Part shown: positions 1,123-11,874 of the stretch, one piece after another
Layout: the number at the start of each line of letters is the position of its first letter
How positions within the stretch are numbered: position 1 is the first letter of the stretch
NCBI GenBank assembly: GCA_005881575.1
Contig: VBCA01000001.1
Location: 85,611 to 149,610 of the forward strand
From: Betaproteobacteria bacterium
GTDB taxonomy: Bacteria; Pseudomonadota; Gammaproteobacteria; Burkholderiales; SG8-39
Length of the DNA stretch: 64,000 bases
Direction of reading: 5' to 3'
Made by a program: the position numbers and the translations under genes
Notes under the pieces: generated by a model
What the model was told of the DNA's origin: nothing
Databases searched by the model: none
The model's input: the letters and a program-made list of their open reading frames with translations, nothing else

Positions 1123-1572
1123 TCAACCCTCGCCGGGGCCGCCGACGACGGCGCGAATCGCATCGAAGGAAAACCCTCGCGACTGAAGAAAGCGCATCTG
1201 CTTGGCCCGCTCCTCGCGGGTCCTCGGCGCGACCCGGAATTTTCTGCGCCAGACTTCGCGTGCGCGATCGACTTCGGTCGCGCGCGCGGCCCCGGATGCC
1301 TGCTCGGCAAGCTCCTTATCGAGGCCCTTCGCGCGCAACTCGTGGGCGATGCGCGCCGCTCCATACTTGCGCGAAAGAGCGTGGGCGCGCGATTCCGCGT
1401 AGCGCTCGTCGCACAGGAGCCTGCGTCGCGACAGGTCTTCGAGCAGGGCTTCGAGGTCCTCCTGCGGACTCGCGTACGTCCGGAGCTTCCCCGCCAGCTC
1501 GGCGCGGCTGTGCTCGCGCCGCGCGAGAAGTCGCAGGGCCCGCTCGCGCAGCGCCGGCCGCTTTTTTTTCAC
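1123..1572 (-). CDS. recX: Recombination regulator RecX
   Basis: The tail of ORF 1123..2700 reads [22 protein letters not shown]...[26 protein letters not shown]..., typical RecX helical repeats. GTG at 1572 overlaps the recA stop (GTGTGA). The gene lies directly downstream of recA. Confidence 0.8.
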
Positions 1573-2615
1573 ACCTCGGCGGTGACGGGAGCCAATGCCT
1601 CCGGAGTCTTGATGCCGAGCTTCTCGCGGATCTTCGCCTCGATCTCGGCGGCGAGCTCCGGGTTTTCTTTCAGGAAGTCGCGGGCGTTGTCCTTGCCCTG
1701 GCCGATGCGGTCCTTCTTGTACTGGTACCAGGCCCCGGACTTGTCGACCACGCCGCAACTGACGCCGAGCTCCAGGATCTCGCCCTCGAGGGACACCCCT
1801 TCGCCGTAGAGAATATCGAACAGCGCCTCGCGGAACGGCGGCGCGACCTTGTTCTTCACCACCTTCACGCGGGTTTCGGAGCCGATCACCTCGTCGCCGC
1901 GCTTGATGCTGCCGATGCGCCGGATGTCGAGGCGGCACGACGCGTAGAACTTGAGCGCGTTGCCTCCGGTGGTCGTCTCCGGATTGCCGAACATGACGCC
2001 GATCTTCATGCGGATCTGGTTGATGAAGATGACGAGCGTGTTGGTGCGCTTGATGTTGGAGGTGAGCTTCCTCAGCGCCTGGCTCATGAGGCGCGCCTGC
2101 AGGCCCATCTGCGGCTCGCCCATTTCGCCCTCGATCTCGGCCTTGGGGGTGAGCGCAGCGACCGAATCGATCACGATCACGTCGACCGAGCCCGAGCGCA
2201 CCAGCATGTCGGCGATCTCCAGCGCCTGCTCGCCGGTGTCGGGCTGGGAAATCAGCAGCTCGTCGATCTTGACGCCCAACTTGGCCGCATATTGCGGGTC
2301 GAGTGCGTTCTCGGCGTCGATGAAGGCCGCAGTTCCGCCCATCTTCTGCACCTGGGCGATCACCGAAAGGGTGAGGGTCGTCTTTCCCGAGGACTCGGGC
2401 CCGTAGATTTCGACCACGCGGCCGCGCGGCAATCCGCCTACTCCGAGCGCGATGTCCAGGCCCAGAGACCCGGTCGACACCACTTGCACGTCCTGCGCGG
2501 CCTGAGAGTCCATCTTCATGATGGAACCCTTGCCGAACTGTTTTTCGATCTGGGCCAGAGCGGCCTGCAGGGCCTTGGCCTTGGCTTCTTCCATGACTTT
2601 CCCTTCGTTGACCAT
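1569..2615 (-). CDS. recA: Recombinase RecA
   Basis: 348 aa. Walker [24 protein letters not shown] and [30 protein letters not shown] are unmistakable RecA segments. Confidence 0.98.
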
Positions 2616-2723
2616 TTTGATTATCTCCTAAATTTGTGCGTTGAAGCGGGCGCCCGCTGCCGTCATCGTCGCCGCCCTGACGCCGTTCCAGGGCTCCCAA
2701 CGCGCAAAGCGAGAAGCCGGTTG

Positions 2724-2743
2724 ACCTGGATTTTTATACAGGT
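2724..2743. promoter_or_regulatory. Candidate LexA (SOS) box upstream of recA
   Basis: ACCTGGATTTTTATACAGGT is a 20-bp palindrome-like site with CTG-N10-CAG and an AT-rich centre, about 110 nt upstream of the recA start. It has one deviation from CTGT-N8-ACAG. Confidence 0.5.
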
Positions 2744-2800
2744 TCAGGGGAAATGCAACCCCCCAAGTCAAATCAATGACTTAGGGATAGAATCGCTTCT

Positions 2801-3457
2801 GTGTCCAGCCCGTGGCAGGTGTTGAACGCTCGTGCGCTCCGCGAAGCTCCTCTCGTCGCGGAGCCCTTCCCCTATCTCATCGTCGACAACCTCATCCGTC
2901 CCGAGGTCCTTGCCGAGGTGGTCGAGAGCTTCCCACGCATCGACAAGCGGGGGAGTTTTCCGCCGGAAGCGGTTTCGTGCTCGGGCCGCTTCGCGACGCT
3001 CATGGCCGAGATGCACAGCGCCGAGCTCAGGGACTTGATCGGCGAGCGCCTCGGCATGGATCTCAAGGACAGGCCTCCGATGCTCACGGTTCGCGGCCGC
3101 ACCGGGAAAAAGGACGGCCGGATCCACACCGATTCCAAATCCAAGCTCGTCACCGTGCTGCTTTACCTGAACCCCGGCTGGAGCGCGGCCGAAGGGCGCC
3201 TCCGGCTCCTCTACAACGACCACGACCTGACTCGCTATGCTGCCGAAATATGCCCCGACGCCGGACGCTGCCTGATTTTCAAGGTTACCCCGAACTGCTG
3301 GCACGGACACGAGCCTTTCGAGGGCGAGCGGCGCACCATCCAGCTCAACTACGTCGCTTCCGAGGAAGCTCGCGAGCGCGACCTGAAGCGGCATCGCTTC
3401 AGCGCATTCCTGAAAGGGCTGCTTTCGAGGAAAGATGAGAAGAGTCCTGCTCATTAA
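2801..3457 (+). CDS. 2OG-Fe(II) oxygenase family protein (prolyl-hydroxylase-like fold)
   Basis: 218 aa with a GTG start. Candidate HxD...H facial triad (RIHTDS ... CWHGHEP). Its 3' end overlaps the waaC start by 23 nt. Confidence 0.75.
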   Translation: MSSPWQVLNARALREAPLVAEPFPYLIVDNLIRPEVLAEVVESFPRIDKRGSFPPEAVSCSGRFATLMAEMHSAELRDLIGERLGMDLKDRPPMLTVRGRTGKKDGRIHTDSKSKLVTVLLYLNPGWSAAEGRLRLLYNDHDLTRYAAEICPDAGRCLIFKVTPNCWHGHEPFEGERRTIQLNYVASEEARERDLKRHRFSAFLKGLLSRKDEKSPAH

Positions 3458-4514
3458 GCTCACGTCCCTGGGCGACCTGATCCACGCGCTCCCGGCTCTG
3501 AGCGACGCCCAAAGCGCCCGTCCAGGGCTCGAGTTCGACTGGGTCATCGACGAGAATTTCCGGGAAATCGCGCTCTGGCACCCGGCGGTGAGCCGCGTCA
3601 TCACCACCAATCACCGCGAATGGCGCGGGGCGTTGGCGAGCGCGGAGACGCACGGGTCCATTTCCAAGACGATCGAAGAGATCCGGGGCTCCGGGTACGA
3701 CCTGGTCATCGACGGGCAGGGCAATTTCAAGACGGCACTGCTTTCCCTCTTCGCCAGGGGGACTAGAGCCGGATTCGACAGTCATTCGGTGCGGGAATGG
3801 ATCGCCCACCTCGCCTACCAGCGGCGGTTCGCCGCCTCGAAGGATGCGCACGCCATCGAGCGCCTGCGGCGACTGTTCGCCTCCGCACTGGGCTACCCGA
3901 TGCCCGTCTCGGCGCCCGATTTCCGGATTCAGAGGGACAAATTCATCAAGCCGAAACTCGATCTTCCCGGCGAGTATCTCGTGTTCGTCCACAACGCGAG
4001 CTGGAAAACCAAACTGTGGCCCGAGGCCCACTGGGCGGCGCTCCTCGAGAAATCGGTTCAGGCCGGATTCAAGGTGCTGCTGCCATGGGGAAACGAGGCG
4101 GAGCAGGCGCGAGCGCGGCGCCTCGCGATCCGCTCCGAGGTCCGCGTTCTGCCCAAGCTCACTCTTTCCGAAATCGGCTACGTGATCGAGAGGGCCCGGG
4201 CATGCGTCTGCATGGACACGGGCTTGAGCCACCTCGCGGCGGCGCTCGACGTACCTTCGGTCACCCTCTATGGGTCGACCGACTCCGGGCTCATCGGCGC
4301 ATCGGGCGCCTCGCAGGTGCACTTAAAATCCGATCTTCACTGTTCTCCCTGCCGGGAAAAAACCTGCCGCTACACCTCGGGAGACAATCCCTGCCTGGAG
4401 AAAATCGGCCCGGAAAGGGTTTTCGGGGAGCTGCTGCGTCTCACCCGACGCGCACCCGAGCTCAGGCAAGTCCCAGTCTCACCGGTATCCGCTTCGGCCC
4501 GAAGGCTTTCTTGA
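3435..4514 (+). CDS. waaC: Lipopolysaccharide heptosyltransferase I (GT9)
   Basis: 359 aa. MRRVLLIKLTSLGDLIHALPALSDA..., FDWVIDENF, AIERLRRLFASALGY and VCMDTGLSHLAAAL are colinear with my recollection of E. coli RfaC. Confidence 0.88.
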   Translation: MRRVLLIKLTSLGDLIHALPALSDAQSARPGLEFDWVIDENFREIALWHPAVSRVITTNHREWRGALASAETHGSISKTIEEIRGSGYDLVIDGQGNFKTALLSLFARGTRAGFDSHSVREWIAHLAYQRRFAASKDAHAIERLRRLFASALGYPMPVSAPDFRIQRDKFIKPKLDLPGEYLVFVHNASWKTKLWPEAHWAALLEKSVQAGFKVLLPWGNEAEQARARRLAIRSEVRVLPKLTLSEIGYVIERARACVCMDTGLSHLAAALDVPSVTLYGSTDSGLIGASGASQVHLKSDLHCSPCREKTCRYTSGDNPCLEKIGPERVFGELLRLTRRAPELRQVPVSPVSASARRLS

Positions 4515-5550
4515 AGAGCTCGAAGCGCCCGGCGATCGCACCCCCGCACTGCTTGCACCTGCCATCATCGGTGACGCGATAGTCGAGGATGCTGTACCAG
4601 TCGCGAGCGATCACGGCGCTGCCGCAGCCCGGGCAGTAAGTCGATCCGCCCTCAGGGTCGTGCACGTTGCCCGTATACACGTAGCGCAGGCCGTGCTCCA
4701 GCGCGATCTTGCGCGCGCGCGTCAGCGTCGCGGCCGGCGTGGGAGGAATGTCGGTCATCTTGTAGTCGGGATGGAAAGCGGTGAAGTGCAGCGGAACGTC
4801 GGGGCCGAGCTCTTTGGCGATCCAGCGGCACTCGGCGTCGATCTCCGCGTCGCCGTCGTTCCTGCCCGGAATGAGCAGCGTGGTGATCTCGAACCAGACT
4901 TCGGTTTCGTGCTCGAGGTAGACGAGCGTCTCGAGCACGTCCTTCAAATGGGCGCTGCAGGTGCGAAAGTAGAACTCCTCGGTGAAAGCCTTCAAGTCGA
5001 CGTTGGCCGCGTCCATCTTGGCGTAAAACTCGCGCCGCGGCTCGTCGTGCATGTAACCGGCGGTCACGGCCACCGCCTTGACGCCGACCTCACGGCAGGC
5101 ATCGGCGACGTCCATCGCATACTCCGCAAAAATCACCGGATCATTGTAGGTAAAGGCGACGCTGCGGCACCCGTAATCGAGCGCGGCGCGCGCCAGCTGC
5201 TCCGGGCTCGCCGCATCGGCTAGCGTGTCCACGTCGCGCGACTTGGAAATGTCCCAGTTCTGGCAGAACTTGCAGGCGAGATTGCAGCCCGCGGTGCCGA
5301 AGGACAGGATGCCCGAGCCCGGATAGAAATGATTGAGCGGCTTCTTTTCGACCGGATCGATGCAAAATCCCGAGGAACGTCCGTAGGTCGTAAGCACCAT
5401 CTGGTCGTGCTCGCGCATGCGCACGAAACACGCGCCGCGCTGGCCCTCGTGCAGCCGGCAATCGCGCGGACAAAGGTCGCACTGCAGCCTGCCGTCCGCG
5501 AGCCTATGCCACCAGCGGCCGACGTAGGGTCCCTCTCGCACGGCGCTCAT
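4462..5550 (-). CDS. AmmeMemoRadiSam system radical SAM enzyme
   Basis: CX3CX2C motif CNLACKFC. N-terminal Cys cluster CDLCPRDC...C and C-terminal CPGC...CKQC ribbon. ATG at 5550 overlaps the upstream stop (ATGA). The longer ORF start at 5604 is less likely. Confidence 0.9.
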   Translation of the reverse strand: MSAVREGPYVGRWWHRLADGRLQCDLCPRDCRLHEGQRGACFVRMREHDQMVLTTYGRSSGFCIDPVEKKPLNHFYPGSGILSFGTAGCNLACKFCQNWDISKSRDVDTLADAASPEQLARAALDYGCRSVAFTYNDPVIFAEYAMDVADACREVGVKAVAVTAGYMHDEPRREFYAKMDAANVDLKAFTEEFYFRTCSAHLKDVLETLVYLEHETEVWFEITTLLIPGRNDGDAEIDAECRWIAKELGPDVPLHFTAFHPDYKMTDIPPTPAATLTRARKIALEHGLRYVYTGNVHDPEGGSTYCPGCGSAVIARDWYSILDYRVTDDGRCKQCGGAIAGRFELFKKAFGPKRIPVRLGLA

Positions 5551-6938
5551 CGACGAAGATCCGCTTCGCGCCACTTGAGCACGGTGTAACGTTTCACCCG
5601 GCAACGCCGGATATCGGTGCTCTGCGCGATCCCCGCCTTTTGCCTCAAGTGCGCGATGAACTGCTCCGGATCCGGGAGGCCCTCCCAGACCTGCGGCAGG
5701 AAGGTCGCACGCTTGCCTTCCTCACCTTGCTCGAGAATGATTCCATCCACGCCGGGGCGCAGACGAGCAATCAGCTCGGCGTGGTTTTCGAACGCCAGCC
5801 GCTTGGGCGTCGACAGGAGCGATACTTCGATGTCGATGCCCTCGAGCTCGTCGGGCGTGAGCGGCTTGAAGCGCGCGTCCTCGAACGCCGCAGCGCGGGC
5901 GTTCTCGGCGACGTCTTGCGCGAGCGGCCGCTGGGCCTCGAGCGCACCGACGCAGCCGCGCAGCTCACCACTTTGCATCAGGGTGACGAAGCTCGCGCGC
6001 GATTCGCGCAGCCAGGACTCCTCGGCGACCGGCGCGCGGGACTCTGCGCTTACTCCCAGCGCGGCGGAGATCGATTGACGCGCGATTTGCAGCAGCTTTC
6101 TTCCGTGCTCTGCCCCGTAGCGCGGGCTTTCGGATGCGAGCGCAAAGGAGGCGTAGCCGACGACCCGGTTCTTGTCGCCGGCGGTGTCGCCCGAGTTGCG
6201 GCAGTCGAGCAGCCTCGGCGCGAGTCCTTTGCGCTTGGCCGCGATCAGCATGCCGGCCACCGGCGTCGCCCCGCAGGCCTGCTCGTGACGGATTGCGGCG
6301 TCGAAGCCGAGAATCGCCTGCACGGTGGCGCCGTCGATCTCGCGCGCGGCCTCGTACGAATGGTAGTGCGAGAGGTCCGAGCTGATCACGATCAGCGTTT
6401 CGGTTCCGCCCCAGATGCGCTCCAGCACGTCGGCGACTTTCTCCGGAGCGGCGTCGCCCACCACCAGCGGCACCAGCGAGAATCCGTCCAGGACCTGCTG
6501 CAGGAACGGCAGCTGCACTTCGAGCGCGTGCTCTTCGGCGTGCGTCGCCGCCGATTCCACGACCTGGGGCAGGCCGCGGATCGAGGCGATCGCCTCTTCG
6601 TCCAGCGGGATCCGGCCAAGGGGTGTGTCGAATGCGCTCGCCCGCGGCAGCGCGAGGCCGTGCACGGGAATCCGGTGACAGGGACCGAGGATCACGACGC
6701 GTCTGACGATGCCGCGCGCCGGGCGCAGCTGATCGTAGGCGCTCGCCGCGACCGGTCCGGAATAGATAAAACCGGCGTGAGGGACGATCACCGCCTTGGG
6801 GAATCCCGGCGCGAGAGGCGCCTCCTCGGTCTGGTCGAGATAGGAAGCGACTTCTTCGGCGAGCACGCGCGCGTCCGCGGGGTAGAACAAGCTCGCGACC
6901 GCGGGCGGGCGCACTTCGGCGTCACGGAAGGAGCTCAT
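5547..6938 (-). CDS. Fused AmmeMemoRadiSam system protein B (Memo-like) and protein A (AMMECR1)
   Basis: The N-terminal half has VIVPHAGFIYSGPVAASAY, ISSDLSHYH and ACG (Memo family). The C-terminal half has SFVTLMQSGELRGCVGALEA (AMMECR1 LRGC-x-G motif). Both lie in one uninterrupted frame. ATG at 6938 (MSSFRDAEV) was verified in the sequence. Confidence 0.85.
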   Translation of the reverse strand: MSSFRDAEVRPPAVASLFYPADARVLAEEVASYLDQTEEAPLAPGFPKAVIVPHAGFIYSGPVAASAYDQLRPARGIVRRVVILGPCHRIPVHGLALPRASAFDTPLGRIPLDEEAIASIRGLPQVVESAATHAEEHALEVQLPFLQQVLDGFSLVPLVVGDAAPEKVADVLERIWGGTETLIVISSDLSHYHSYEAAREIDGATVQAILGFDAAIRHEQACGATPVAGMLIAAKRKGLAPRLLDCRNSGDTAGDKNRVVGYASFALASESPRYGAEHGRKLLQIARQSISAALGVSAESRAPVAEESWLRESRASFVTLMQSGELRGCVGALEAQRPLAQDVAENARAAAFEDARFKPLTPDELEGIDIEVSLLSTPKRLAFENHAELIARLRPGVDGIILEQGEEGKRATFLPQVWEGLPDPEQFIAHLRQKAGIAQSTDIRRCRVKRYTVLKWREADLRR

Positions 6939-6988
6939 GCTCTCAATATAGAGCACGGGCCTCCCGGACCCAAGCCCCGCGCGCGCCT

Positions 6989-7861
6989 TCAGCGTGGCGG
7001 CGATGCGCGGTGCCGGGCAGTCCAGGGCCCGCGCTGGTCGCGGGTCCGCACCTCGCCCGTCATGGCGTCCCCGGCCACGGTCCCCTCGAACGCCAGCAGC
7101 CGGCCCTTGTGGAGCAGCCCGAAGCGGACCTGCTCGCCCCGCACCGCCAAATCCTTGAGGGTGAGCTCGGCGCCGCCATCGCGCACGAATCCGCCGATGG
7201 CGTCGGGTTCCTGCGTGATCTGCAGCATGAGCGCGGCGCCCGCAAGCGTTTTGGGCAACGTGAGCTCCCACGCGCCATGCACGCGCGCCGGGACGACGTA
7301 GTAATAGAGCCTCGTCCAGGAAGTACCGCTGATCATCTCCTTTTCAGGGACGTCCATCGAAAGCTCCTTGTCGGGCGGCCAGGGAGAAAGCGGATAATCG
7401 TGGGACACGATGCGCGTTCCGGGACGCAGTTCCGCGCGCAGCTTCGGCACGAGACGCGTGACGAAGTGCGGCAGCAGGTACAGCATCACCACGCTCGCCG
7501 ACCGGATATCGGCCTGGAAGAGGTCGCCTTGCACGAACTTGACGCGATCCGCCACGCCCTCCTGTTTCGCGCCGATTCTCGCCGTCTCGACGAGCTCCGT
7601 CTGCAGCTCGACGCCTACCCCGCGCGCGCCGAAGCGCTTGGCCGCGGTGATCACCAACCTCCCGTCTCCCGAACCGAGGTCGTAAACCACGTCCTCGCCG
7701 CGGATATCGGCGAGTTTGAGCATCTCATCCACGATCACCCACGGCGTCGGTACGTAGGGGCCCGCGACGTTGTCCTTCGCATCGTCGAGGTCCTGCGCGA
7801 ATGCGGCCACGGCCGCGCAGAGCGCGAGCGCGGCTGCGACGCCGCGGAAAAACGAAATCAT
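6989..7861 (-). CDS. Class I SAM-dependent methyltransferase with N-terminal signal peptide or membrane anchor and an extra C-terminal domain
   Basis: 290 aa. Hydrophobic N-terminus MISFFRGVAAALALCAAVAAFAQ, then YVPTPWVIVDEML, motif I VYDLGSGDGRLV and GVELQ. An additional C-terminal region of about 100 aa follows. The ATG overlaps the pncC stop (ATGA). Confidence 0.8.
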   Translation of the reverse strand: MISFFRGVAAALALCAAVAAFAQDLDDAKDNVAGPYVPTPWVIVDEMLKLADIRGEDVVYDLGSGDGRLVITAAKRFGARGVGVELQTELVETARIGAKQEGVADRVKFVQGDLFQADIRSASVVMLYLLPHFVTRLVPKLRAELRPGTRIVSHDYPLSPWPPDKELSMDVPEKEMISGTSWTRLYYYVVPARVHGAWELTLPKTLAGAALMLQITQEPDAIGGFVRDGGAELTLKDLAVRGEQVRFGLLHKGRLLAFEGTVAGDAMTGEVRTRDQRGPWTARHRASPPR

Positions 7862-8355
7862 CCTGTTTCCTCCAGTCGTTCGAGCAGGCCTTTCAGCGCG
7901 AACGCCACCGACTGCCGGCGCACGCTGTCCCGGCCGCCGCGGAAATGCCGGGTATCGCTATCCATCGCGCCCCGTTTCCGCGACCAGGCGAAACACACCG
8001 TGCCGACGGGTTTCGCCTTCGTGCCGCCGGTCGGCCCCGCGACGCCGGTCACCGCGATCGAAACCTGCGCGCGGCTGCGCGCGAGCGCACCCGCCGCCAT
8101 TTCCTCCGCGGTTTCGCAGCTCACCGCGCCGCGCCGCGAGAGAGTCCGCTCGCGCACGCCGAGCAGCTCTTTCTTGGCTTCGTTGGAGTAGGTCACGAAT
8201 CCGCGGTCGAACCAGCCGGAGCTCCCCGACACGGAAGTCACGGCCTGGGCGATCCAGCCGCCGGTGCACGACTCTGCCGTGGCGAGCTTCAGATTGCGTT
8301 TCTTCAGGCGGGCGCCGATGCGTCCCGCGAGCAGCTTGAGCGCATCGCGAGCCAT
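7858..8355 (-). CDS. pncC: CinA C-terminal-domain protein / nicotinamide-nucleotide amidase
   Basis: 165 aa from MARDALKLLAG. Motifs LATAESCTGGW and VTGVAGPTGG. The rest of ORF 7858..9195 is out-of-frame read-through of pgpA/thiL. Confidence 0.85.
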   Translation of the reverse strand: MARDALKLLAGRIGARLKKRNLKLATAESCTGGWIAQAVTSVSGSSGWFDRGFVTYSNEAKKELLGVRERTLSRRGAVSCETAEEMAAGALARSRAQVSIAVTGVAGPTGGTKAKPVGTVCFAWSRKRGAMDSDTRHFRGGRDSVRRQSVAFALKGLLERLEETG

Positions 8356-8840
8356 CAGCCGAGAATTCTTTTCACTAGAGCGATGAGGAGCAGGGTGTAG
8401 AACGCCGCGACGGTGTCGTCGAACATCACGCCCAGGCCTCCTTTCATCGCACGGTCGATGTGGCGGATCGGCGGCGGCTTGACCACGTCGAAGAAGCGGA
8501 ACGCGAAGAACGCGAGGGCCCACCAGGCCCAGTCCGACGGTGTTAGCAACAGGATCAGCAGCATCGCGACCACCTCGTCCCAGTTCATTGCGCTGTGATC
8601 GGCGATGCCCAGATCGCGCCCGGTGCGCGCGCACGCCCAGATCCCGATCCCGAAGAAAACGACGATGACACCGAGAAGGGCGAGCGGCGCAAGCCAGAGG
8701 TCGAGCAGGAAGAAAAGCGGAAACGCGAGCAAGGTGCCTACGGTGCCCGGGGCGAGCGGCGCAAGCCCCGTTCCGAAACCGAGCGCGATGAAATGGGCCG
8801 GGTGGGCGAAGACGAAACCGGGGGCGGGCCGCGGGATCAT
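8355..8840 (-). CDS. pgpA: Phosphatidylglycerophosphatase A
   Basis: 161 aa from MIPRPAPGF. Motifs HPAHFIALGFGTGLAPLAPGTVGTL and FRFFDVVKPPPIR. ATGA overlap with the thiL stop. Confidence 0.9.
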   Translation of the reverse strand: MIPRPAPGFVFAHPAHFIALGFGTGLAPLAPGTVGTLLAFPLFFLLDLWLAPLALLGVIVVFFGIGIWACARTGRDLGIADHSAMNWDEVVAMLLILLLTPSDWAWWALAFFAFRFFDVVKPPPIRHIDRAMKGGLGVMFDDTVAAFYTLLLIALVKRILG

Positions 8841-9796
8841 GCGAAGTGATCGAAGCCCTTGCGCGGACGGGAAGCGAGCTTGCCCCGGGCGTCGCGCAGC
8901 CTCGCCACCGGATCGCCCGGAACGGCCGCGCCGATGAGGGCGAGCGGGATTTCGAGGTCCCTTCCCACGGCCCCGATCTGCGCGCGCTTGACCTTCGGCG
9001 CGGTGAATAGCAGCTCGTAATCGTCGCCGCCGGCGAGCAGGCAGTCCTCGGCGAGCGCCTTGTCCGGACAATCCGCGATCGCCCTCGCCCGCGGCAGCTT
9101 GTCCGAGGCGAGCTCGGCGCCGACGCGGGATGCCTCCAGAATGTGGCCGAGATCGGCGAGCAGGCCGTCGGAGACGTCGATTGCGCTGCGCGCAAGGCCG
9201 CGCAGCTTCACGCCGAGATCGACGCGCGGCTCCGGCGCGTGCAGCCGGGCGAGGCAGGCTTCGAGCGCCGCGCCCTCCAGCTTCACGCGCCCTTTGAGGT
9301 GGGCGAGCGCGAGCGCCGCTTCTCCGGTCGCGCCCGAAAGCCAGATATCGTCCCCGGCGAGCGCCGCGTCGCGCCGCAGCGCGAGCCCCGCCGGCACCTC
9401 GCCCATCACGGTGACCGAGATCGCGAGCGGCCCTCTCGTCGTGTCCCCGCCGATGAGCTCGGTTCTCCAGCGGCCTGCGAGACGGAAGAACCCTTGCGCG
9501 AACGCGGCGATCCACGTCTCGTCCGCCTCGGGCAGCGCGATCGCGAGCGTGGCCCAGCGCGGGCCGGCGCCCATCGCTGCGAGATCCGAGAGATTGACCG
9601 CCAGCGCCTTGTGCCCGAGCTTCGCCGGATCGGCGTCCGGGAAGAAATGAATTCCGGAGGTGAGCATGTCGGTCGAAACGGCGAGCAGCATTCCGGGGTC
9701 GGGCCGGAGGAGCGCGCAGTCGTCGCCCACCCCCAGGATCGCCGTCGGCGCTTCCCGGGTGAAGTATTTGCGGATGATGTCGAACTCGGAGGCCAC
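8837..9796 (-). CDS. thiL: Thiamine-monophosphate kinase
   Basis: 319 aa. EFDIIRKYF and LGVGDDCALL with PurM/AIR-synthase-like architecture. Confidence 0.9.
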   Translation of the reverse strand: MASEFDIIRKYFTREAPTAILGVGDDCALLRPDPGMLLAVSTDMLTSGIHFFPDADPAKLGHKALAVNLSDLAAMGAGPRWATLAIALPEADETWIAAFAQGFFRLAGRWRTELIGGDTTRGPLAISVTVMGEVPAGLALRRDAALAGDDIWLSGATGEAALALAHLKGRVKLEGAALEACLARLHAPEPRVDLGVKLRGLARSAIDVSDGLLADLGHILEASRVGAELASDKLPRARAIADCPDKALAEDCLLAGGDDYELLFTAPKVKRAQIGAVGRDLEIPLALIGAAVPGDPVARLRDARGKLASRPRKGFDHFA

Positions 9797-9800
9797 GTCT

Positions 9801-10223
9801 TCAGGCTTTTCTCTCCTGCGGGCGCAGCTCGGGGACGAGCTTGTCGAGCACGCCGTTCACGTACTTGTGGCCGTCGGTGCCGCCGAAGTCCTTGGCGAGC
9901 TCGATCGCCTCGTTGATCACCACCTTGTACGGGATATCGGTCGCGTTTTTCAGCTCGAACGCCGCGAGCAGCAGGATGCCGCGCTCCACCGGCGAGAGCT
10001 CCTTCAGCTTGCGATCGAGCAGGGGCGCGATCAGGCGCTCGAGTGAAGCGGCGTGCGTTATCGTCCCCTGCAGGAGCCGCGCGAAATACTCGGCGTCGGC
10101 CTTACCAAAGCTCTTTGATTCCGCCAGCTGGGACTGAAGGCCCGCCGCGTCGTCGCCCCCGAGCTGCCACGCGTACAGACCCTGCAGCGCGAGCTCGCGC
10201 GAACGGCGCCGCGCCGATTTCAT
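9801..10223 (-). CDS. nusB: Transcription antitermination factor NusB
   Basis: 140 aa. [15 protein letters not shown]... Conserved ribH-nusB-thiL order. Confidence 0.95.
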
Positions 10224-10678
10224 TTGTTGCTCTTCGCGATGCTCTTGGAGAGGTTCGCCATTTCCACAGCGACCTCGGCGCAGTCCCGGCCTTTTTGCGC
10301 AGCGCGCGCCTTCGCCTGTTCCTCGGTGTCGGTGGTGAGAATGCCGTTTGCGACCGGGATGCCGCTGTCGAGCTGCACCTGCATGAGGCCTGAAGCGGAT
10401 TCGTTCGCGACGACGTCGAAATGGTGCGTCTCGCCGCGTATGACCGCGCCGAGCGCGATCAGCGCATCGTACTTCTCCGTATTGGCGAGCTTCTGCAGGG
10501 CTAGCGGCGCCTCGAGCGCGCCCGGCACGCTGATCACGGTGAGGGCGGTCACATGCAATTCCGCGAGCCGCTTGCGGCAGGCTTCCAGCATCGCGACGCC
10601 GATGCGCGCGTTGAAGCGCGAGCGCACGATCCCGACGCGCAGGCCCTCCCCGCCCGAGTCGGGCTCGATCTCCGCCAT
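10220..10678 (-). CDS. ribH: 6,7-dimethyl-8-ribityllumazine synthase
   Basis: 152 aa from MAEIEPDSG. Motifs [10 protein letters not shown] and [15 protein letters not shown]. Confidence 0.95.
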
Positions 10679-11787
10679 CAGCCGTCCCGCGCCCTGGCGG
10701 CCTTTTCGACGTAACCCGCGATCTCCAGCTCCCACCCCGCCATGCTCGGCATCTTGCGTGGCGAGGCCATGAGGCGCATCTTGCCGACCCTGAGATCGCG
10801 CAGGATCTGCGCGCCGATTCCGTAGGTGAGGAAATCCATCTTGGACGGTCGATCGGGCCGCTGGGGCGATGCGACGCGCTCGATCAGCTGAGACGCGCTC
10901 TCCGCGCAATTGAGCAGCACCATGACGCCTTTGCCCTCCGCGGCGATGCGCTCGAGCGCGTCGGGCACCGACCAGGAGTGCGCCCGCCGTCCGGCCTCGA
11001 GCAGGTCGAGCACGGAGAGCGGCGCGTGCACGCGCACCAGCGTCTCCTTGTCGGGTGCGATCTCGCCCCGGACGAGCGCGAGCTGGGTCTCTCCGCTGAT
11101 CTTCTCCAGGTAGGCGACCAGCCGGAACGGCCCGAAGCGGGTTTCGATCACGCGCTCTGTCACGCGCTTGATGAGCGATTCGTTCTGGCTCCTGAAATGG
11201 ATGAGATCGGCGATCGAGCCGATCTTGAGCCCGTGATGTTTCGAGAACTCGACGAGGTCGGGCAGCCGCGCCATGCTTCCGTCGTCTTTCATGATCTCGC
11301 ACAGCACCGCCGCCGGATGGAGGCCGGCGAGCTGCGCGAGGTCGCAGCAGGCCTCGGTGTGCCCGGCGCGCACCAGCACCCCGCCTGCCTGCGCGATGAG
11401 CGGGAACACGTGGCCCGGCTGGACGATGTCCGCGGGCGTCGCCTTCGGGGAAGCCGCCACCTTGATGGTGTGCGCCCGGTCGGCCGCCGATATTCCCGTG
11501 GTCACGCCGGAGGCGGCTTCGATGGACACGGTGAAGTTGGTGCCGTGCACCGAACGGTTGCGCGCCACCATGGGCAGGAGATTCAGGCGTTCGGCGTGCG
11601 CCTCGGTGATCGGCATGCAGACCAGGCCGCGGCCGAACTTCGCCATGAAATTTATCTTTTCCGCGGTGACGAATTCCGCCGCGAAGATGAGATCGCCCTC
11701 GTTCTCGCGGTCCTCGTCGTCGACGAGCACGGCCATGCGGCCGGCTTTCAGCTCGGCGATGATTTCCTGGATCGAGTTGAGGCTCAT
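10678..11787 (-). CDS. ribBA: Bifunctional 3,4-dihydroxy-2-butanone-4-phosphate synthase / GTP cyclohydrolase II-like protein
   Basis: 369 aa from [14 protein letters not shown] synthase motif [16 protein letters not shown], followed by a C-terminal GCHII-like domain. The upstream extension to 11868 is judged non-coding. Confidence 0.9.
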
Positions 11788-11874
11788 GGTGTCGTCCGTC
11801 CGAGCGCGAATTTTACGCCTAACGGCGCCGCGCCGTTCCAGCAGGAACGCATTGCGGGAAAGGGGCATTAAGTT

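What the first reader, a model, noticed from the sequence alone, without database searches (positions are those of the whole stretch)
4462..6938. AmmeMemoRadiSam module with Memo and AMMECR1 fused into one polypeptide, coupled to its radical SAM partner
Seen in sequence: a 463-aa protein carries Memo-type motifs in its N-terminal half (VIVPHAGFIYSGPVAASAY, SSDLSHYH, ACG). Its C-terminal half carries the AMMECR1 LRGCVG motif. Its stop overlaps the start (ATGA at 5547..5550) of a radical SAM enzyme. That enzyme has CNLACKFC plus two extra Cys clusters. Established knowledge: the three families co-occur as the AmmeMemoRadiSam system, and Memo and AMMECR1 have human homologues. No substrate or product is known for the bacterial system. 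A covalent B-A fusion argues for a physical complex with 1:1 stoichiometry. A TATATT element lies about 13 nt upstream of the ATG, so the pair may also have its own promoter. This is a genuine known-unknown system and a tractable entry point.
Basis: partly seen in the sequence, partly recalled or inferred. Interest (0 to 1): 0.7.

Follow-up and report, generated by a model that had tools for sequence, protein, structure and literature searches.

The report
Ordinary fused amrBA–amrS radical SAM operon
This is a standard two-gene AmmeMemoRadiSam module with Memo fused to AMMECR1 and a radical SAM partner; its function is unknown, but this fused layout is common and already catalogued in public databases.

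Summary
On the minus strand, ATG 6938 to stop 5547 encodes a 463-aa protein. Its N-terminal half is AmmeMemoRadiSam protein B (Memo; TIGR04336, 266 bits, cutoff 26). Its C-terminal half is protein A (AMMECR1; TIGR04335, 186 bits, cutoff 99). Its TGA overlaps the ATG (5547-5550) of a 362-aa radical SAM enzyme (TIGR04337, 647 bits, cutoff 220; PflA model only 46 against 232). That enzyme has three invariant Cys clusters. The TATATT box is real. With a TTGGGT box 17 nt upstream, it is the only conserved intergenic block in 15 related loci. It ends 6 nt before an invariant ATG, so an own promoter and a probably leaderless mRNA are likely. The B-A fusion is not unusual. All 120 best database clusters are fused, and some are already named "protein B/protein A". 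So are about 75 of the 80 best species-representative genome loci and about 135 of the 150 best 50%-identity cluster representatives. A 99%-identical protein is already public. Beyond the radical SAM gene, no further conserved partner gene was found. No paper found in the held library and no solved structure gives a function. Verdict: correctly identified, already known, modest interest.

The parts
5547..6938 (-). amrBA fusion gene, 463 aa plus stop. The real start is ATG 6938, not the GTG at 6956 used by the 469-aa database models.
   Evidence: Translation. HMM hits. ATG is invariant, and GTG is not conserved, with indels upstream, in 15 loci. The 469-aa models begin MLYIE[SG]M.
6141..6911 (-). 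Memo / AmmeMemoRadiSam protein B domain (residues 10-266). Its metal-site residues are H54, H88, H137, E140, D188, H191 and C222.
   Evidence: TIGR04336 265.8 bits, PF01875 164.7 bits. Aligns to the PHAG, GPSHH and SSDFCHW motifs of human MEMO1. These residues are invariant in 84 diverse fusions. Foldseek matches 3bcz, 7kq8 and 7l5c at about 6e-24.
5574..6098 (-). AMMECR1 / AmmeMemoRadiSam protein A domain (residues 281-455), with the LRGCVG loop (G328, C329, G331).
   Evidence: TIGR04335 186 bits, PF01871 153.5 bits. G328, C329, G331, D354 and R356 are invariant. Foldseek matches 1wsc, 1zq7 and 1vaj at 1e-15 to 2e-18.
5547..5550 (-). ATGA stop/start overlap that couples amrBA to amrS.
   Evidence: Read directly from the sequence. 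The same 1-nt tblastn overlap occurs in the closest loci only: L001, L003-L005, L007-L011, L014 and L022.
4462..5550 (-). amrS, the AmmeMemoRadiSam radical SAM enzyme, 362 aa plus stop.
   Evidence: TIGR04337 646.7 bits against a cutoff of 220. TIGR02493 (PflA) 46.2 bits against 231.75. PF04055. The closest solved structure, by sequence and by fold, is PflA.
5263..5286 (-). CNLACKFC, the canonical CX3CX2C radical SAM [4Fe-4S] motif (C89, C93, C96).
   Evidence: Invariant in 68 of 68 sequences.
5428..5481 (-). N-terminal auxiliary Cys cluster C24-x2-C27-x3-C31-x9-C41.
   Evidence: Invariant in 68 of 68 sequences. The structure model is unreliable here.
4546..4635 (-). C-terminal Cys cluster C306-x2-C309-x22-C332-x2-C335. 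Reading it as a zinc-ribbon or rubredoxin type is an inference from the spacing.
   Evidence: Invariant in 68 of 68 sequences.
6945..6950 (-). TATATT, a -10-like box that ends 6 nt before the ATG.
   Evidence: A, T, A and T are invariant and the flanking C, T and G nearly invariant in 15 loci. The rest of the intergenic region varies.
6968..6973 (-). TTGGGT, a -35-like box 17 nt upstream of TATATT.
   Evidence: The CTTGGG block is conserved in 15 loci. The sister clade has TTGACC-N16-TAGAAT in the corresponding intergenic region upstream of amrBA.

Best explanation
SHOWN. This is a two-gene operon, amrBA-amrS, of the AmmeMemoRadiSam system. One polypeptide carries a Memo-type (LigB/PCAD-superfamily) domain with an intact His/His/Asp/His/Cys metal site. 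It also carries an AMMECR1 domain with its invariant Gly-Cys-x-Gly loop. AlphaFold2 predicts the two domains with high whole-chain confidence. The downstream gene starts inside the fusion's stop codon. It encodes a PflA-like radical SAM enzyme with the SAM-cleaving CX3CX2C cluster plus two further invariant Cys clusters. Across distant lineages the only conserved linkage is between these two genes.

INFERRED, moderate confidence. The pair has its own sigma-70-type promoter (TTGGGT-N17-TATATT). The -10 box ends 6 nt before the ATG, so the mRNA is leaderless or nearly so. amrS is translated by termination-reinitiation at ATGA.

INFERRED, low confidence, from family knowledge. AmrS reductively cleaves SAM, and the 5'-deoxyadenosyl radical abstracts a hydrogen from a substrate held by AmrBA. 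The AMMECR1 cysteine acts as a nucleophile or covalent handle. The Memo metal centre performs or assists a redox step. From my memory of Burroughs et al. 2019 (J Biol Chem; the paper could not be opened here) and from Burroughs and Aravind 2014 (PMC4075521), the most often predicted substrate class is a nucleotide base in RNA, with an isoprenoid as the alternative.
For: Identity: NCBIfam scores are 265.8/186/646.7 bits against cutoffs of 26/99/220. Pfam finds Memo, AMMECR1 and Radical_SAM.

Catalytic residues are invariant in 84 diverse fusions and 68 rSAM sequences. They align with the MEMO1 metal-site motifs.

Folds: pLDDT 95.8 and pTM 0.93. Foldseek matches MEMO1 and AMMECR1 structures and PflA.

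Linkage: amrS lies within the flank in 67 of 80 loci. In 56 it is immediately downstream of amrBA. In ten gammaproteobacterial-type loci it is divergent upstream. No third conserved neighbour was found.

Promoter: conserved -35-like and -10-like blocks in 15 loci, an invariant ATG, and indels that rule out coding upstream. The sister clade has TTGACC-N16-TAGAAT in the corresponding intergenic region upstream of amrBA. No Rfam element is present.

RNA-modification idea: PMC4075521.
Against: No substrate, product or phenotype is known for any member.

The consensus promoter scan found nothing, because the -35 box matches only 3 of 6 positions.

The upstream methyltransferase gene ends only 50 nt away on the same strand. 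Read-through transcription is therefore possible.

The ATGA overlap is confined to the closest clade. Elsewhere the genes are 3-190 nt apart or divergent, so tight translational coupling is not a family property.

The rSAM model is poor (pLDDT 68.7, N-terminus unreliable).

Eukaryotes keep Memo and AMMECR1 without the rSAM. This statement is from family knowledge and was not tested here. It means the B and A chemistry cannot strictly depend on AmrS.
Confidence: 0.85

Rival explanations
1. AmrS is an activase whose substrate is AmrBA itself. It would install a protein radical or a post-translational modification, for example at the invariant G328-C329-x-G331 loop of the AMMECR1 domain. This would parallel PflA acting on a glycine loop of pyruvate formate-lyase.
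For: By both sequence and fold, the nearest characterised relatives of AmrS are protein-directed activases such as PflA. BA is the only conserved partner. The Gly-Cys-x-Gly loop is invariant.
Against: The loop does not match the RVxG[FYW] glycyl-radical motif. From family knowledge, eukaryotic AMMECR1 keeps the loop without any rSAM partner. The host lineage is soil Burkholderiales. I assume these are aerobic, and a glycyl radical would be oxygen-labile there. There is no experimental hint.
Confidence: 0.12
2. The radical SAM gene is an ordinary PflA-type glycyl-radical-enzyme activase. Its real partner would lie elsewhere in the genome, and its adjacency to the Memo-AMMECR1 gene would be incidental.
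For: JGI pipelines name homologues 'pyruvate formate lyase activating enzyme'. PflA is the best PDB hit.
Against: TIGR02493 scores 46 bits against a cutoff of 231.75, while TIGR04337 scores 647 against 220. The linkage to BA is kept in 67 of 80 loci, including after gene-order rearrangement. Two extra invariant Cys clusters were found that I do not believe occur in PflA; this was not compared here. No long ORF in the 64-kb window carries an RV[SACG]G[YFW] motif (a weak test).
Confidence: 0.03
3. The conserved TATATT/TTGGGT blocks are not a promoter. Instead, amrBA-amrS would be transcribed by read-through from the upstream pncC and methyltransferase genes. The blocks would then be a regulator site or a translation signal.
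For: The genes share a strand and the gap is only 50 nt. The scan tool calls no promoter. No terminator-like site follows the upstream gene on the minus strand.
Against: The spacing (17 nt between boxes, 5-9 nt to an invariant ATG) fits a sigma-70 promoter. The sister clade carries near-consensus TTGACC-N16-TAGAAT in the corresponding intergenic region upstream of amrBA. No usable Shine-Dalgarno spacing exists between TATATT and the ATG.
Confidence: 0.3
4. The apparent fusion is an assembly or frameshift artefact that joins two separate genes.
For: Natural split versions exist. Three Sulfuricella loci have separate, overlapping B and A ORFs.
Against: The ORF is continuous here. It is also continuous in about 75 of 80 independent genome loci, in all 120 best protein clusters and in about 135 of the 150 best 50%-identity cluster representatives. 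The junction is modelled with pLDDT above 90.
Confidence: 0.01

Closest known systems
AmmeMemoRadiSam system (NCBIfam TIGR04335 / TIGR04336 / TIGR04337; PGAP gene symbols amrA, amrB, amrS)
   Same: All three family models are matched far above their cutoffs. The genes are adjacent. The catalytic motifs are intact.
   Different: B and A form one polypeptide instead of two. This is itself a common, already annotated variant: JGI names it 'protein B/protein A'. In this clade the rSAM start overlaps the fusion's stop codon.
Human MEMO1 (PDB 3BCZ; iron-bound 7KQ8; copper-bound 7L5C)
   Same: Same fold (Foldseek 6e-24, TM 0.79 on the target). Same metal-site motifs PHAG, GP.H and SSD..H.
   Different: About 24% identity. 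MEMO1 stands alone and, from family knowledge, has no rSAM partner.
Archaeal AMMECR1 homologues ST0229 (1WSC), MM0484 (1ZQ7) and PH0010 (1VAJ)
   Same: Same fold, and the LRGC[IV]G and LPQV motifs are shared.
   Different: Those proteins stand alone. In archaea, AMMECR1 genes are linked to NFACT and Mut7-C RNase genes (PMC4075521; PMC6393860).
Pyruvate formate-lyase activating enzyme PflA (PDB 3C8F, 3CB8, 8FO0)
   Same: The radical SAM core is shared, and PflA is the best solved relative (phmmer 5e-7; Foldseek 4e-10).
   Different: AmrS scores 46 bits on the PflA model against a cutoff of 231.75. It is about 120 aa longer (362 against 245 aa). It has an N-terminal four-Cys and a C-terminal four-Cys cluster. 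No glycyl-radical enzyme partner was seen.

Membership tests
AmmeMemoRadiSam system | Protein B (Memo-like) matches TIGR04336 above the curated cutoff. | tested here: met
   265.8 bits against 26, residues 10-266.
AmmeMemoRadiSam system | Protein A (AMMECR1-like) matches TIGR04335 above the curated cutoff. | tested here: met
   186 bits against 99, residues 281-455.
AmmeMemoRadiSam system | The radical SAM enzyme matches TIGR04337 above the curated cutoff. | tested here: met
   646.7 bits against 220, full length, profile positions 2-349 of 349.
AmmeMemoRadiSam system | The three components are genomically linked. | tested here: met
   Adjacent with an ATGA overlap here. Linked in 67 of 80 related loci.
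AmmeMemoRadiSam system | CX3CX2C radical SAM cluster motif, plus the family's auxiliary Cys clusters. | tested here: met
   C89/93/96, C24/27/31/41 and C306/309/332/335 are invariant in 68 sequences.
AmmeMemoRadiSam system | Memo metal-site residues and the AMMECR1 catalytic Cys are retained. | tested here: met
   H54, H88, H137, D188, H191, C222 and C329 are invariant in 84 fusions and align with MEMO1.
AmmeMemoRadiSam system | SAM cleavage activity and a defined substrate or product. | not testable with these tools
   No biochemical data exist for any member in the held literature.
PflA-type glycyl-radical enzyme activase | Matches the TIGR02493 / TIGR02494 equivalog models above their cutoffs. 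| tested here: not met
   46.2 bits against 231.75, and 45.2 bits against 174.35.
PflA-type glycyl-radical enzyme activase | A cognate glycyl-radical enzyme is encoded nearby. | tested here: not met
   No long ORF with an RV[SACG]G[YFW] motif in the 64-kb window. The neighbours are a methyltransferase, CinA/PncC, a GT9 glycosyltransferase and a 2OG oxygenase. The rest of the genome was not available.
Leaderless mRNA genes | The transcription start coincides with an AUG start codon, with no Shine-Dalgarno leader. | tested here: inconclusive
   The -10-like box ends 5-9 nt (6 nt here) before an invariant ATG in 15 loci. No transcript data are available.

The most novel reading that the evidence does not exclude
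AmrS would not be a small-molecule or RNA enzyme. It would be a dedicated activase acting on the rigid AmrBA body. It would generate a radical or a covalent modification at the invariant Gly-Cys-x-Gly loop of the AMMECR1 domain, next to the Memo metal site. The system would then be a new class of radical-activated metalloenzyme, and eukaryotic relatives would have replaced the activation step. In this clade the module would also be expressed from its own leaderless transcript.
Probability: 0.1. Interest if true: 0.75.

Novelty: already known. Interest (0 to 1): 0.25.

Why it matters
The function of the AmmeMemoRadiSam system is a real open question. Two of its components have human homologues: MEMO1, and AMMECR1, whose variants are reported in patients with developmental delay, hearing loss and elliptocytosis (PMC9305766). 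This locus adds no new handle on that question. The fusion, the linkage and the motifs are typical of hundreds of catalogued copies, including copies in cultured strains.

The small additions made here are these:
- a corrected start codon;
- a conserved promoter that probably gives a leaderless mRNA;
- evidence that the BA:rSAM pair is the whole conserved module;
- a confident prediction that B and A fold with high whole-chain confidence (pTM 0.93).

Tried and rejected
1. Burroughs et al. 2019 (J Biol Chem) is the main comparative study of Memo-AMMECR1-rSAM systems. It could not be opened by DOI or PMC id. Its conclusions are cited from memory only.

2. Literature searches for AmmeMemoRadiSam, AMMECR1 with Memo and radical SAM, and the TIGR/IPR accessions gave only incidental mentions.

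3. I looked for a triple S-B-A fusion among unusually long homologues of 533-810 aa. None carries a radical SAM domain. They only have long linkers or insertions.

4. De novo clustering of neighbouring ORFs across 80 loci found no third conserved partner. The first, ungreedy clustering was polluted by antisense ORFs, which are common in high-GC DNA.

5. The consensus promoter scan found nothing. The promoter case rests on conservation instead.

6. The Rfam scan of 4300-8000 was empty.

7. The rSAM structure prediction from a shallow alignment (77-94% identity to the query) was poor. Nothing is concluded from it about the N-terminal cluster.

8. Composition shows no sign of recent horizontal transfer: 62-71% GC against 65% for the window. 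The window holds no paralogues.
Full report
**Observation.** The finding's coordinates exactly bound two minus-strand genes.
- ATG 5550 to stop 4464-4462 encodes 362 aa, with CNLACKFC at residues 89-96.
- The plus-strand 'tcat' at 5547-5550 is ATGA on the coding strand. The fusion's stop and the rSAM start therefore share TG.
- TATATT lies at 6945-6950, which is -12 to -7 from the ATG.

**Identity.** NCBIfam places the N-terminal half in TIGR04336 (AmmeMemoRadiSam protein B; 265.8 bits, cutoff 26; residues 10-266). The C-terminal half falls in TIGR04335 (protein A; 186 bits, cutoff 99; residues 281-455). The second protein falls in TIGR04337 (646.7 bits, cutoff 220, full length). The PflA and other glycyl-radical-activase models reach only 20-46 bits against cutoffs of 131-500. 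Pfam agrees: Memo plus AMMECR1, and Radical_SAM.

**Is the fusion real, and is it unusual?** It is real but not unusual.
- All 120 best 90%-identity clusters in the 5.8-billion-protein collection are 453-496 aa and carry both Pfam domains.
- Several are already named 'AmmeMemoRadiSam system protein B/AmmeMemoRadiSam system protein A'. The best is 99% identical.
- A scan of one genome per GTDB species found 265 loci with a relative of this protein.
- About 75 of the 80 best loci carry one continuous match that covers both domains, roughly residues 9-455.
- They span Burkholderiales, Novimethylophilus, Rubrivivax, Endozoicomonas and Kistimonas, Pseudomarimonas, Steroidobacter, Magnetococcales, Verrucomicrobiae and others.
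- An exhaustive HMMER pass over 1.84 billion 50%-identity cluster representatives gave 3,392 hits at E ≤ 1e-30.
- About 135 of the best 150 are 430-550 aa and span both domains. The list is still at E = 1e-86 where it is cut off.
- Longer members only have longer linkers, and none adds a radical SAM domain.
- Natural split relatives exist. In three Sulfuricella genomes B and A are separate ORFs. In L077, the one inspected, they overlap by 11 nt.

**Anatomy and conservation.** In 84 diverse fusions (36-89% identical to this one) the invariant positions include H54, H88, H137, E140, D188, H191 and C222. They also include G328, C329, G331, D354, R356 and W418. The first set aligns with the PHAG, GPSHH and SSDFCHW motifs of human MEMO1. 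From the MEMO1 literature as I recall it, these motifs contain the Fe/Cu ligands. The second set is the AMMECR1 LRGCxG loop.

AlphaFold2 gives mean pLDDT 95.8 and pTM 0.93 with no low-confidence linker. I read this as one compact two-domain body, although no inter-domain error estimate or coordinates were returned. Foldseek recovers MEMO1 (3bcz, 7kq8, 7l5c; about 6e-24) and the archaeal AMMECR1 structures (1wsc, 1zq7, 1vaj). It also finds LigB-type dioxygenases more distantly.

In AmrS, all eleven cysteines of three clusters are invariant in 68 sequences:
- C24-x2-C27-x3-C31-x9-C41
- C89-x3-C93-x2-C96
- C306-x2-C309-x22-C332-x2-C335

The AmrS model is only moderate (pLDDT 68.7). Its barrel core matches PflA best, followed by HydE, LIAS, SuiB and viperin.

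**Linkage and context.** amrS lies within the flank in 67 of 80 loci.
- In 56 loci, mostly annotated as betaproteobacteria, it follows amrBA directly on the same strand. The 1-nt-resolution ATGA overlap is confined to the closest clade. Elsewhere the gap is 3-190 nt.
- In ten gammaproteobacterial-type loci it is divergently transcribed about 100-250 nt upstream.
- Five loci with several kb of flank on both sides show none nearby.
- No other gene is conserved next to the pair across distant lineages.

In this window and its relatives the pair sits in a housekeeping string: ribBA-ribH-nusB-thiL-pgpA-pncC-(methyltransferase)-amrBA-amrS ... recA-recX. I treat this as lineage synteny, not as functional evidence. 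GC content is ordinary and there are no paralogues in the window.

**Promoter and start codon.** I aligned the 120 nt around the start in 15 close loci. The 50-nt intergenic region is variable except for two blocks, GCTTGGGTC and CTATATTG, which lie 17 nt apart hexamer to hexamer. These are followed 5-9 nt later (6 nt here) by an invariant ATG. The GTG at 6956, used by the 469-aa database models (MLYIESM...), is not conserved. Indels between TATATT and the ATG break that frame.

The sister clade (L015-L033) has a near-consensus TTGACC-N16-TAGAAT in the corresponding intergenic region upstream of amrBA, about 30 nt before its ATG. The simple consensus scan finds nothing because the -35 box is only 3 of 6. 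No Rfam family matches.

I conclude three things:
- the real start is ATG 6938;
- a -10 box that ends 6 nt before the ATG implies a leaderless or near-leaderless mRNA. This last point is an inference, and read-through from the upstream gene remains possible.

**Mechanism.** What is shown is the domain composition, the intact catalytic residues, the two-gene module and the coupling. What the system does is not known. Six papers in the held library use the system's name. The three I opened mention it only in gene lists or a figure legend. No solved structure of the TIGR04337 family exists.

The most likely scheme is as follows:
- AmrS cleaves SAM reductively and abstracts a hydrogen from a substrate bound to AmrBA.
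- The AMMECR1 cysteine serves as a nucleophile.
- The Memo metal centre contributes a redox step.
- The substrate is most often predicted to be an RNA base (PMC4075521) or an isoprenoid (Burroughs 2019, from memory).

The main alternative is that AmrS acts on AmrBA itself, as PflA acts on its protein substrate. The evidence here cannot separate these two.

**Verdict.** The finding is correctly read and correctly interpreted. However, it describes an ordinary, already catalogued member of a known 'function unknown' system. The fusion that motivated the high score is a common architecture. Interest is modest (0.25).

Noticed in passing
window 6939-6956 (minus strand): Many public gene models of this protein (469 aa, beginning MLYIE[SG]M) start at a non-conserved GTG. 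They translate the TATATT box as Leu-Tyr-Ile. Conservation and indels show the true start is the ATG six codons downstream.
   Followed up: yes
window 6989-7861 (minus strand): A 290-aa class I SAM-dependent methyltransferase, apparently with an N-terminal signal peptide, sits between pncC and amrBA. It is present in 16 loci, 15 of them in the closest clade. Its function and any link to the module are unknown.
   Followed up: partly
window 4462-4514: The 3' end of a convergent GT9 heptosyltransferase-like gene (3435-4514, plus strand) overlaps the 3' end of amrS by 53 nt. A similar overlap occurs in close relatives. A palindromic hairpin at 4492-4504 lies inside both coding regions.
   Followed up: partly
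window 1123-11868; L015-L034: The module is inserted between pncC (cinA family) and recA-recX, inside a ribBA-ribH-nusB-thiL-pgpA-pncC string. In the sister clade all of these genes share one strand. In this window's clade a GT9 gene and a 2OG-Fe(II) oxygenase gene are wedged convergently between amrS and recA.
   Followed up: partly
L074, L075, L077 (Sulfuricella): B and A are separate genes here (in L077, B is 5791-6807 and A is 6797-7351, an 11-nt overlap), at about 60-64% (B) and 49-52% (A) identity to the fused protein. This is a natural fission, or the ancestral split state, in a near relative.
   Followed up: yes
L041, L051, L055-L057, L061, L062, L064, L065, L069: In gammaproteobacterial-type loci amrS is divergently transcribed upstream of amrBA rather than downstream. 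The linkage therefore survives rearrangement, but translational coupling does not.
   Followed up: partly
L040, L074, L075, L077: An ispD-like and ispF-like gene pair (isoprenoid precursor synthesis), identified only by reading the ORF translations, lies directly upstream of amrB or amrBA on the opposite strand. This is seen in Novimethylophilus and Sulfuricella, four loci in all. It is possibly plain synteny, but it echoes the published isoprenoid hypothesis.
   Followed up: no
L015-L033, about 10-20 nt upstream of the amrBA ATG: In the sister clade the roughly 30-nt leader downstream of TTGACC-N16-TAGAAT contains a recurring CCCCCATAT-like element and no obvious Shine-Dalgarno sequence. This is unexplained.
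   Followed up: no
P0269, P0234, P0208, P0134, P0212 (distant homologues): Some B-A fusions carry linkers or insertions of 60-200 aa between the domains. One (P0212) has a weak, sub-threshold TPR-like (ANAPC3) match in its N-terminal extension. The very short linker seen in this window is therefore not universal.
   Followed up: partly
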